Part shown: positions 51,304-51,400 of the stretch, piece after piece
How the letters are laid out: every line of letters starts with the position of its first letter
Numbering within the stretch: the first letter of the stretch is position 1
DNA from: Trypanosoma brucei
Lineage: Eukaryota
DNA length: 64,000 nucleotides
Assembly (NCBI GenBank): GCA_000002445.1
Contig: CM000208.1
Coordinates: forward strand, 1,856,001 to 1,920,000
Reading direction: 5' to 3'
Translations under genes and position numbers: made by a program
The notes under the pieces: generated by a model
Databases searched by the model: none
What the model was told of the DNA's origin: nothing
The model's input: only the letters and a program-made list of their open reading frames with translations

Positions 51304-51400
51304 AAAAAAATATTGACACCGGACGGAAACAACCGCCGACACCCCAAAGTTTAAACGCTAATCGGCTGCGCCGCCTAGTAAAAGTCGAGACGGCGATGCC
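51304..51400 (-). ncRNA. Candidate Pol III small RNA (snRNA-like) with a U5-loop-like CUUUUACUA motif and a T7 terminator
   Basis: Minus strand: GGCATCGCCGTCTCGACTTTTACTAGGCGGCGCAGCCGATTAGCGTTTAAACTTTGGGGTGTCGGCGGTTGTTTCCGTCCGGTGTCAATATTTTTTTCGC. The CGCCG/CGGCG stem encloses CUUUUACUA. The 3' AAUAUUUUUUU resembles an Sm site plus terminator. The 5' end falls about 100-150 bp from the box-A/box-B tRNA-like element at 51500-51557, in divergent orientation. Confidence 0.25.

What the first reader, a model, noticed from the sequence alone, without database searches (positions are those of the whole stretch)
51304..51400. Candidate small RNA polymerase III RNA with a U5-snRNA-like loop, placed divergently from an orphan tRNA-like promoter element.
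On the minus strand there is a GC-rich, structured stretch of about 95 nt. A CGCCG/CGGCG stem encloses the sequence CUUUUACUA; the invariant loop I of U5 snRNA is CCUUUUACUAAAG. The 3' end reads AAUAUUUUUUU, which looks like an Sm site followed by a T7 terminator. The element starts about 100-150 bp from a perfect box B (51545-51555) and a weak box A. Trypanosomatid U-snRNA and 7SL genes are known to depend on box A/B elements from a divergently oriented upstream tRNA gene or tRNA-like element, positioned about 100 and 150 bp from the +1 site. No ORF explains this region. I could not match the candidate to a remembered snRNA sequence, and the published T. brucei U5 is shorter (about 62 nt), so the identity is tentative.
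Basis: partly seen in the sequence, partly recalled or inferred. Interest (0 to 1): 0.55.

Follow-up and report, generated by a model that had tools for sequence, protein, structure and literature searches.

The report
Known Trypanosoma brucei U5 snRNA gene

Summary
On the minus strand, an 8-bp stem (51395-51388 / 51376-51369) encloses the 11-nt loop CGACUUUUACU, which matches 10 of 11 bases of the universal U5 loop I. A T7 run lies at 51304-51310, and a perfect box B lies on the opposite strand at 51546-51556.

The window is T. brucei TREU927 chromosome 10, bases 1,856,001-1,920,000. A published gene table places the 62-nt U5 snRNA gene in this tRNA cluster, on this strand, overlapping an orphan ORF.

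The same RNA sits in the same gene neighbourhood in seven other trypanosomatids. In L. major it is the annotated U5. The stem shows compensatory changes, and a model built from six species found the T. vivax and T. melophagium copies at E about 1e-15 and 1e-13.

Three corrections:
- The mature RNA is 51338-51399 (62 nt).
- The conserved Sm site is AAACUUUGG (51344-51352), not AAUAUUUUUUU, which is only the terminator.

The Rfam U5 model scores only 17.5 bits (threshold 40). It also misses the annotated L. major U5, so a failed Rfam hit refutes nothing.

One curiosity: the published T. brucei U5 coordinates are the exact mirror image of the true position within the orphan ORF.

Verdict: already known, low interest.

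The parts
51338..51399 (-). Mature U5 snRNA (62 nt): GCAUCGCCGUCUCGACUUUUACUAGGCGGCGCAGCCGAUUAGCGUUUAAACUUUGGGGUGUC
   Evidence: The only hit of model R1 in the window, at 70.8 bits. The 5' end is inferred by gap-free alignment to L. tarentolae U5. The cryo-EM numbering for that RNA (m7G1, U17 in loop I, C35/C36) fits only this register (PMC13601561). The 62-nt length comes from the published gene table. The listed coordinates there are the exact mirror image of 51338-51399 within ORF 50826-51419.
51388..51395 (-). Stem I, 5' arm (RNA positions 5-12, CGCCGUCU)
   Evidence: 8 pairs, 98.4% of cells paired across 8 species, and 3 pairs with changes on both sides. None of 500 shuffles reached the observed covariation score.
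51377..51387 (-). Loop I (positions 13-23, CGACUUUUACU), the exon-aligning loop of U5
   Evidence: Invariant in all 8 species. Aligned to the CGCCUUUUACU consensus by Rfam RF00020.
51369..51376 (-). Stem I, 3' arm (positions 24-31, AGGCGGCG)
51344..51352 (-). Sm site AAACUUUGG (positions 48-56)
   Evidence: Aligns with AA(A)UUUUGR in the seven other species. T. brucei alone has a C in the U run.
51311..51337 (-). 3' trailer of the predicted primary transcript (positions 63-89), presumed to be trimmed off
   Evidence: Not conserved. The equivalent stretch is 6-33 nt in the other species, and its hairpins are no more stable than shuffled sequence. Trimming is inferred from the 62-nt annotated length.
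51304..51310 (-). T7 run, the predicted RNA polymerase III terminator (positions +90 to +96)
   Evidence: It is the first run of 4 or more T downstream of the Sm site. Every ortholog has a T4-T7 run 6-33 nt after its Sm site.
51546..51556 (+). Box B (GGTTCGAATCC) of the divergent tRNA-like element, starting at -147 from U5 +1
   Evidence: Perfect match. GGTTC is invariant in the upstream divergent strand of all seven species aligned. In Leishmania and Leptomonas, the box B of a real tRNA-Cys sits at -149 to -151.
51503..51513 (+). Weak box A-like sequence (TTGTTCAGCCG) starting at -104
   Evidence: It has 4 mismatches to TRGCNNAGTGG. It is 7/11 identical to the tRNA-Cys box A, TAGCTCAGTGG, which sits at -106 to -108 in Leishmania and Leptomonas. 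The position matches the about 104-bp rule (PMC4950102). The assignment is tentative.
51492..51571 (+). tRNA-like element as a whole (approximate limits), ending in a T4 run at 51568-51571. It is not a functional tRNA.
   Evidence: Neither ARAGORN nor Rfam calls a tRNA here. The T-stem does not pair, by reading of the sequence. The element occupies the position and orientation that tRNA-Cys(GCA) has next to U5 in L. major, L. tarentolae and Leptomonas pyrrhocoris.

Best explanation
This is the U5 small nuclear RNA gene of Trypanosoma brucei (chromosome 10, about 1,907,338-1,907,399, complement), together with its promoter and terminator.

Transcription (inferred from the family). RNA polymerase III is recruited through box B, and probably a degenerate box A, of a tRNA-like relic on the opposite strand at -147 and -104. 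The first bases of the gene are thought to contribute as well. Transcription starts at G 51399, reads through the T4 run inside loop I, and stops at the T7 run at 51304-51310. This gives a precursor of about 90-96 nt.

Maturation (inferred). The precursor is trimmed from the 3' end to the 62-nt mature RNA, which ends a few bases past the Sm site.

Function (established for the family). The mature RNA is one 8-bp stem carrying the invariant 11-nt loop I, then a single-stranded linker, then the Sm site AAACUUUGG. The Sm ring assembles on the Sm site. In the trans-spliceosome, loop I holds the spliced-leader exon and aligns it with the 3' splice site for exon ligation.

Shown here: the sequence features, their conservation and covariation, the synteny with annotated U5 genes, and the promoter geometry. 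Inferred here: the start site, the 3' trimming, polymerase III dependence, and the function of the boxes.
For: Locus identity. Six tRNA genes and the U4 gene in the window match the published T. brucei chr10 coordinates with one constant offset of 1,856,000. The same table lists a 62-nt U5 snRNA on the complement strand between tRNA-Thr(AGT) and tRNA-Leu(AAG). The paper also says U5 overlaps the orphan gene Tb10.6k15.2990 on the opposite strand, which fits ORF 50826-51419(+). The listed coordinates (window 50846-50907) are the exact mirror image of 51338-51399 within that ORF. The sequence actually at 50846-50907 has no U5 loop, no model hit and no conservation.

Orthology. The same RNA lies next to the Tma16 / tRNA-Pro(TGG)-Met cluster in seven other species: L. 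major, L. tarentolae, Leptomonas pyrrhocoris, Angomonas deanei, T. grayi, T. vivax and T. melophagium. In L. major it coincides with the annotated U5 beside tRNA-Cys.

Structure. There are 8 stem pairs, 98.4% of cells are paired, and 3 pairs carry compensatory changes. Loop I is invariant.

Rfam. Rfam U5 aligns over its full length with loop I in register, but at only 17.5 bits.

Start site. The L. tarentolae cryo-EM numbering (G1, U17, C35/C36) fits only one register, and that register transfers to T. brucei without gaps.

Promoter. Box B lies at -147 and the box A-like sequence at -104. The published rule is about 104-106 and about 150.

Terminator. Every ortholog has a T run of 4 or more bases 6-33 nt after its Sm site.
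Against: - I could not read the original T. brucei U5 sequence. Dungan et al. 1996 and Xu et al. 1997 are not held in the library, and searches for the sequence in papers found nothing relevant. Base-for-base identity with the published RNA is therefore inferred, not shown.
- The coordinates printed in the published table do not coincide with the element. The mirror-image explanation is my inference.
- Rfam U5 is far below its gathering score (17.5 against 40 bits).
- Box A is poor, with 4 mismatches.
- The gene contains a T4 run in loop I (51380-51383). T4 is the only T run listed after many trypanosomatid tRNA genes (file 2), so read-through by Pol III needs explaining.
- No expression data were available here.
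Confidence: 0.95

Rival explanations
1. The full RNA of about 90-96 nt (51399 to the T7 run) is itself a stable, functional long form of U5. Its Sm site would be followed by a 3' hairpin, as in canonical U5, so it would not be merely a short-lived precursor.
For: The nearest Pol III terminator is 33 nt past the Sm site. A hairpin can be drawn in the tail, CGGCGG...CCGUCCG, at -8.8 kcal/mol. Five of the seven orthologs also allow a small hairpin before their T run. The Rfam U5 model aligned its 3' stem-loop to this tail.
Against: The tail hairpins are no more stable than shuffled sequence: T. brucei gives -8.8 against a shuffled mean of -8.2. T. grayi and Angomonas have no hairpin at all, and tail length ranges from 6 to 33 nt without sequence conservation. 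The annotated T. brucei U5 is 62 nt. Trypanosomatid U5 is described as unusually short.
Confidence: 0.06
2. The region is the 3' part of a protein-coding gene on the + strand, the 197-aa ORF at 50826-51419 that was once annotated as orphan Tb10.6k15.2990. On this reading the U5-like hairpin is incidental.
For: An uninterrupted ATG-to-stop ORF of 197 aa covers the element. It was once annotated as a gene.
Against: A tblastn search of the ORF against the syntenic loci of 8 other species matches only residues 181-195, which is the piece lying over the U5 stem-loop. A blastn search finds conservation only at 51364-51403. The conserved piece shows RNA-type compensatory changes. In other species it lies in different flanking contexts and orientations.
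Confidence: 0.02
3. The element is a non-functional extra copy (a pseudogene) of U5. The real gene would lie at the coordinates printed in the literature (window 50846-50907) or elsewhere in the genome.
For: The published table prints coordinates 492 nt away from the element.
Against: The sequence at 50846-50907(-) lacks the U5 loop, is not hit by the model and is not conserved. The element at 51338-51399 keeps every conserved position, has a proper promoter geometry and terminator, and is syntenic with the annotated L. major U5. The table lists only one U5 for T. brucei. The rest of the genome was not searched here.
Confidence: 0.02

Closest known systems
Trypanosoma brucei U5 snRNA (the 62-nt 'U5-like' RNA of Dungan, Watkins & Agabian 1996; listed as Tb10_snRNA_2 in PMC2695483)
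   Same: Same chromosome, same tRNA cluster, same strand, same 62-nt length, and same overlap with the orphan ORF. I consider it the same gene.
   Different: Nothing biological differs. The coordinates printed in the 2009 table are the mirror image of the true position within the orphan ORF. I could not compare base for base with the original sequence, because the paper is not held.
U5 snRNA genes of Leishmania and Leptomonas (LmjF36.snRNA.02; the L. tarentolae U5 seen in the 2026 trans-spliceosome structure, PMC13601561; from my own memory, the Leptomonas collosoma U5 of Xu et al. 1997, reported with a tRNA-Cys about 98 nt upstream)
   Same: Identical loop I. The same 8-bp stem, with compensatory changes. 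The same linker length, an Sm site in the same place, and a downstream T run. A divergent upstream element with box A near -105 and box B near -150.
   Different: In Leishmaniinae the upstream element is an intact tRNA-Cys(GCA). In T. brucei it is a decayed tRNA-like sequence that keeps a perfect box B and a poor box A. The T. brucei Sm site has a C in the U run (AAACUUUGG against AAUUUUGA). Its 3' trailer is the longest of the eight, at 33 nt.
Canonical eukaryotic U5 snRNA (Rfam RF00020)
   Same: An 11-nt loop I with 10 of 11 bases equal to CGCCUUUUACU, closed by a stem and followed by a single-stranded Sm site.
   Different: About half the length. There is a single 8-bp stem in place of the long stem I with internal loops IL1 and IL2. 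There is no conserved 3' stem-loop. From the literature rather than this work, it is transcribed by Pol III from an upstream tRNA-type promoter instead of by Pol II. It scores 17.5 bits against the 40-bit gathering threshold.

Membership tests
U5 spliceosomal snRNA | Invariant 11-nt loop I (consensus CGCCUUUUACU) closed by a helix | tested here: met
   The loop CGACUUUUACU at 51387-51377 matches 10 of 11 bases and is invariant in 8 trypanosomatids. The closing helix has 8 bp, with 98.4% of cells paired and 3 compensatory pairs.
U5 spliceosomal snRNA | Single-stranded Sm site (AAUUUUUGR type) downstream of stem-loop I | tested here: met
   AAACUUUGG at 51352-51344 aligns with AA(A)UUUUGR in the 7 orthologs. 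Actual Sm binding was not testable.
U5 spliceosomal snRNA | Long stem I with internal loops IL1/IL2, plus a 3' terminal stem-loop (the canonical architecture) | tested here: not met
   There is only one 8-bp stem. The 3' tail is unconserved and has no significant hairpin. This reduced form matches the description of trypanosomatid U5 as unusually short, so it does not exclude membership of the trypanosomatid subgroup.
U5 spliceosomal snRNA | Score at or above the Rfam RF00020 gathering threshold (40 bits) | tested here: not met
   17.5 bits, E = 6.6. The control is uninformative: the annotated L. major U5 gives no RF00020 hit at E<=10, and the U4 gene in this window is also missed.
U5 spliceosomal snRNA | Orthology with an annotated or experimentally defined U5 gene | tested here: met
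   It is syntenic and alignable with LmjF36.snRNA.02 (U5) and with the L. tarentolae U5, whose cryo-EM numbering fits. T. brucei U5 is listed in this cluster on this strand, with mirrored coordinates.
U5 spliceosomal snRNA | Association with PRP8 and Sm proteins, and contact with the SL exon in the spliceosome | not testable with these tools
   This needs immunoprecipitation, crosslinking or structure data for this RNA.
Trypanosomatid Pol III snRNA gene with a divergent tRNA or tRNA-like promoter | Box B about 150 bp upstream, on the opposite strand | tested here: met
   A perfect GGTTCGAATCC starts at -147, at 51546-51556. The rule is taken from PMC4950102.
Trypanosomatid Pol III snRNA gene with a divergent tRNA or tRNA-like promoter | Box A about 104-106 bp upstream | tested here: inconclusive
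   TTGTTCAGCCG lies at -104 but has 4 mismatches to TRGCNNAGTGG. Three other equally poor candidates lie between -87 and -120.
Trypanosomatid Pol III snRNA gene with a divergent tRNA or tRNA-like promoter | Oligo-T terminator downstream of the coding region | tested here: met
   T7 at +90 to +96. All 7 orthologs have a T4-T6 run.
Trypanosomatid Pol III snRNA gene with a divergent tRNA or tRNA-like promoter | Transcription depends on the boxes and on Pol III | not testable with these tools
   This needs promoter mutagenesis, Pol III inhibition or ChIP.

The most novel reading that the evidence does not exclude
The least ordinary reading still open concerns the primary transcript. T. brucei U5 may be made as a precursor of about 90-96 nt whose 33-nt trailer is the longest among the eight species compared. 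That precursor might persist as a distinct long isoform or as a regulated maturation intermediate. Pol III would also have to read through the T4 run inside the invariant loop I by some context-dependent mechanism. A separate and nearly certain point is that the U5 coordinates printed in the 2009 gene table are a mirror-image error.
Probability: 0.1. Interest if true: 0.3.

Novelty: already known. Interest (0 to 1): 0.1.

Why it matters
U5 is an essential core RNA of the trans-splicing machinery, so locating it correctly matters for annotation. The gene and its type of promoter have been known since the 1990s, so nothing new about the biology follows.

Two practical lessons come out of the check.

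1. Rfam snRNA models miss trypanosomatid U5 and U4, so a missing Rfam hit is not evidence of absence in this lineage.
2. At least one published coordinate for T. brucei U5 points to the wrong 62 bases. They are mirrored within an orphan ORF. Anyone who took coordinates from that table would be misled.

Tried and rejected
- Rfam at gathering thresholds found only tRNAs.
- The two original U5 papers are not held in the library.
- Full-text searches for 15-mers and 12-mers of the sequence found nothing relevant. The 12-mer hits were unrelated primers.
- Supplementary files of the small-RNA sequencing paper and the 2026 structure paper are not held.
- A search for a '62 nt' statement found nothing.
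- An exact-sequence look-up of the window's TBC protein found nothing on record.
- The T. theileri locus has runs of N exactly where U5 is expected. The T. conorhini contig ends before that point.
- I considered that the T. brucei tRNA-like element is a decayed tRNA-Cys. Only its position, its orientation and 7/11 box A identities support this. The multiple alignment shows no further similarity, so I keep it as a weak inference.
- I considered a conserved 3' hairpin and rejected it, because it is no better than shuffled sequence.
- A fourth perfect box B, at 41824-41834(-), lies inside a 657-aa ORF and is taken as chance.

Full report
**1. What is in the sequence**

On the minus strand the region reads ...GG/GCAUCGCCGUCUCGACUUUUACUAGGCGGCGCAGCCGAUUAGCGUUUAAACUUUGGGGUGUC/GGCGGUUGUUUCCGUCCGGUGUCAAUA/UUUUUUU.

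- An 8-bp helix, CGCCGUCU/AGGCGGCG, closes an 11-nt loop, CGACUUUUACU.
- A T7 run lies at 51304-51310.
- The opposite strand carries a perfect box B, GGTTCGAATCC, at 51546-51556.

Folding energy alone is not striking (z = -1.9).

**2. Where the window comes from**

A 530-aa TBC-domain protein at 55572-57164(-) is 100% identical to a T. equiperdum (T. brucei group) protein.

The six tRNA genes found by ARAGORN and Rfam match the T. brucei TREU927 chromosome 10 coordinates in Additional file 1 of Padilla-Mejia et al. 2009 (PMC2695483). All six share a single offset of 1,856,000. The U4 snRNA listed there (window 10946-11055, +) does begin with AAGCCUUGCGCAGGGAGG.

The same table lists one U5 snRNA of 62 nt on the complement strand, between tRNA-Thr(AGT) and tRNA-Leu(AAG). 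The paper's text says this gene overlaps the orphan gene Tb10.6k15.2990 on the opposite strand. The window has such an ORF, at 50826-51419 on the + strand, 197 aa.

**3. A discrepancy and its resolution**

The printed U5 coordinates (1906846..1906907) correspond to window 50846-50907, which is 492 nt away from the element. The sequence at that place has no U5 loop, no hit with the U5 model and no conservation.

The arithmetic explains it: 50826 + 51419 - 51399 = 50846, and 50826 + 51419 - 51338 = 50907. The printed interval is therefore the exact mirror image of 51338-51399 inside the orphan ORF. I take this to be a strand or coordinate conversion error.

It is also independent confirmation of both ends of the 62-nt RNA. 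I had fixed the 5' end beforehand from other evidence (section 5).

**4. Orthologs**

I used homologs of the TBC protein as anchors. The same RNA lies beside the Tma16 gene and the tRNA-Pro(TGG)/Met cluster in seven other species:

| Species | Locus and position |
|---|---|
| L. major | L002 17308-17369 |
| L. tarentolae | L004 16732-16794 |
| Leptomonas pyrrhocoris | L005 16626-16687 |
| Angomonas deanei | L006 12888-12950 |
| T. grayi | L003 16457-16519 |
| T. vivax | L008 13153-13214 |
| T. melophagium | L009 18191-18256 |

The last two were found by covariance model R1, which was built from the other six species. Their E-values are 1.7e-15 and 3.6e-13.

In L. major the element coincides with the annotated LmjF36.snRNA.02 (U5), which lies 95 nt from tRNA-Cys.

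In the T. brucei window R1 finds one copy only. A blastn search of 50700-51650 against the other trypanosome loci finds conservation only at 51364-51403.

**5. Anatomy**

- Loop and stem: across the eight species loop I is invariant. The stem is paired in 98.4% of cells, and three of its eight pairs show compensatory changes (C-G/U-A, G-C/A-U, U-A/C-G). No shuffle reaches the observed covariation score, and slid registers collapse to 23-59% paired.
- Start site: the 2026 L. tarentolae trans-spliceosome paper (PMC13601561) reports m7G on nucleotide 1, pairing with C35 and C36. It also reports U17 in loop I facing the last SL-exon base. Only one register of the L. tarentolae gene gives G1, U17 as the first loop U, and C35/C36. 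That register transfers without gaps to T. brucei and puts +1 at G 51399.
- Sm site: the conserved element is AA(A)YUUUGR. In T. brucei it is AAACUUUGG at 51352-51344.
- Tail and terminator: downstream, every species has a run of 4-7 T after an unconserved tail of 6-33 nt. The tail hairpins are no better than shuffled sequence.

Its 95-97 nt interval is the predicted primary transcript. The 62-nt mature RNA implies 3' trimming, which is an inference.

**6. Promoter**

PMC4950102 gives the published rule. Trypanosomatid snRNA genes are Pol III genes that depend on boxes A and B of a divergent tRNA or tRNA-like element. Box A lies about 104-106 bp upstream and box B about 150 bp upstream, and the first bases of the gene also contribute.

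- In Leishmania and Leptomonas, an intact tRNA-Cys supplies box A at -106 to -108 and box B at -149 to -151.
- In T. brucei no tRNA is detectable. A perfect box B sits at -147, and a poor box A-like sequence, TTGTTCAGCCG, sits at -104.
- GGTTC is the only invariant block in the upstream divergent strands of all seven species aligned.

The element may be a decayed tRNA-Cys, but the evidence for that is weak.

**7. Comparison with the known family**

Rfam U5 aligns over its full length with loop I in register, but scores 17.5 bits against a threshold of 40. It finds nothing on the annotated L. major U5. Rfam also misses the U4 gene in this window.

The miss therefore reflects the reduced trypanosomatid architecture: one short stem, no internal loops, and no 3' stem-loop. 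It does not mean the gene is absent.

**8. Verdict**

The finding is real and correctly interpreted in its essentials. It is the already known single-copy U5 snRNA gene of T. brucei with its tRNA-like promoter.

- Novelty: already known.
- Interest: low.
- Residual points: the mirrored published coordinates, the long 3' trailer, and the T4 run inside a Pol III-transcribed gene.

Noticed in passing
window 50846-50907 (-) against 51338-51399 (-); ORF 50826-51419 (+): The U5 coordinates printed in Additional file 1 of PMC2695483 (chr10 1906846..1906907, complement) are the exact mirror image of the real U5 position within the orphan ORF. The 62 bases they point to have no U5 features.
   Followed up: yes
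window 10946-11055 (+): The T. brucei U4 snRNA gene starts here with AAGCCUUGCGCAGGGAGG, as listed in the literature. Rfam does not report it at gathering thresholds or at E<=1. A box B-like GGTTCGAAAGA lies on the opposite strand at -134 (10812-10802).
   Followed up: partly
window 51380-51383 (-), inside U5 loop I: The invariant loop contains a T4 run 17-20 nt into a gene thought to be transcribed by Pol III. T4 is the only T run listed downstream of many trypanosomatid tRNA genes (file 2 of PMC2695483), so the polymerase must read through it here.
   Followed up: no
window 51304-52008; L002 15986-17370; L003 16457-19363; L006 12888-13356; L008 13153-13619: The module of U5 plus its upstream tRNA or tRNA-like element sits on different sides of the tRNA-Pro(TGG)/Met cluster in different species, and in different orientations. 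In T. brucei and Leishmaniinae it lies beyond tRNA-Leu. In T. vivax, T. grayi, T. melophagium and Angomonas it lies between Tma16 and tRNA-Pro. tRNA-Leu(AAG) is inverted in T. brucei relative to Leishmania. U5 and its promoter element appear to move together.
   Followed up: partly
window 50826-51419 (+): The 197-aa ORF once annotated as sequence orphan Tb10.6k15.2990 has no protein-level conservation in syntenic loci beyond the 15 residues that overlie U5. It is probably not a gene.
   Followed up: partly
window 41824-41834 (-): A perfect box B match (GGTTCGATTCC) with no tRNA nearby. It lies inside a 657-aa ORF (40804-42777, -) and is most likely a chance match; about 0.5 such matches are expected per window.
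   Followed up: partly
L001 18521-20087 and 20337-21613: The T. theileri assembly has runs of N exactly where the U5 and tRNA cluster is expected downstream of Tma16. This explains why no U5 was found there.
   Followed up: yes
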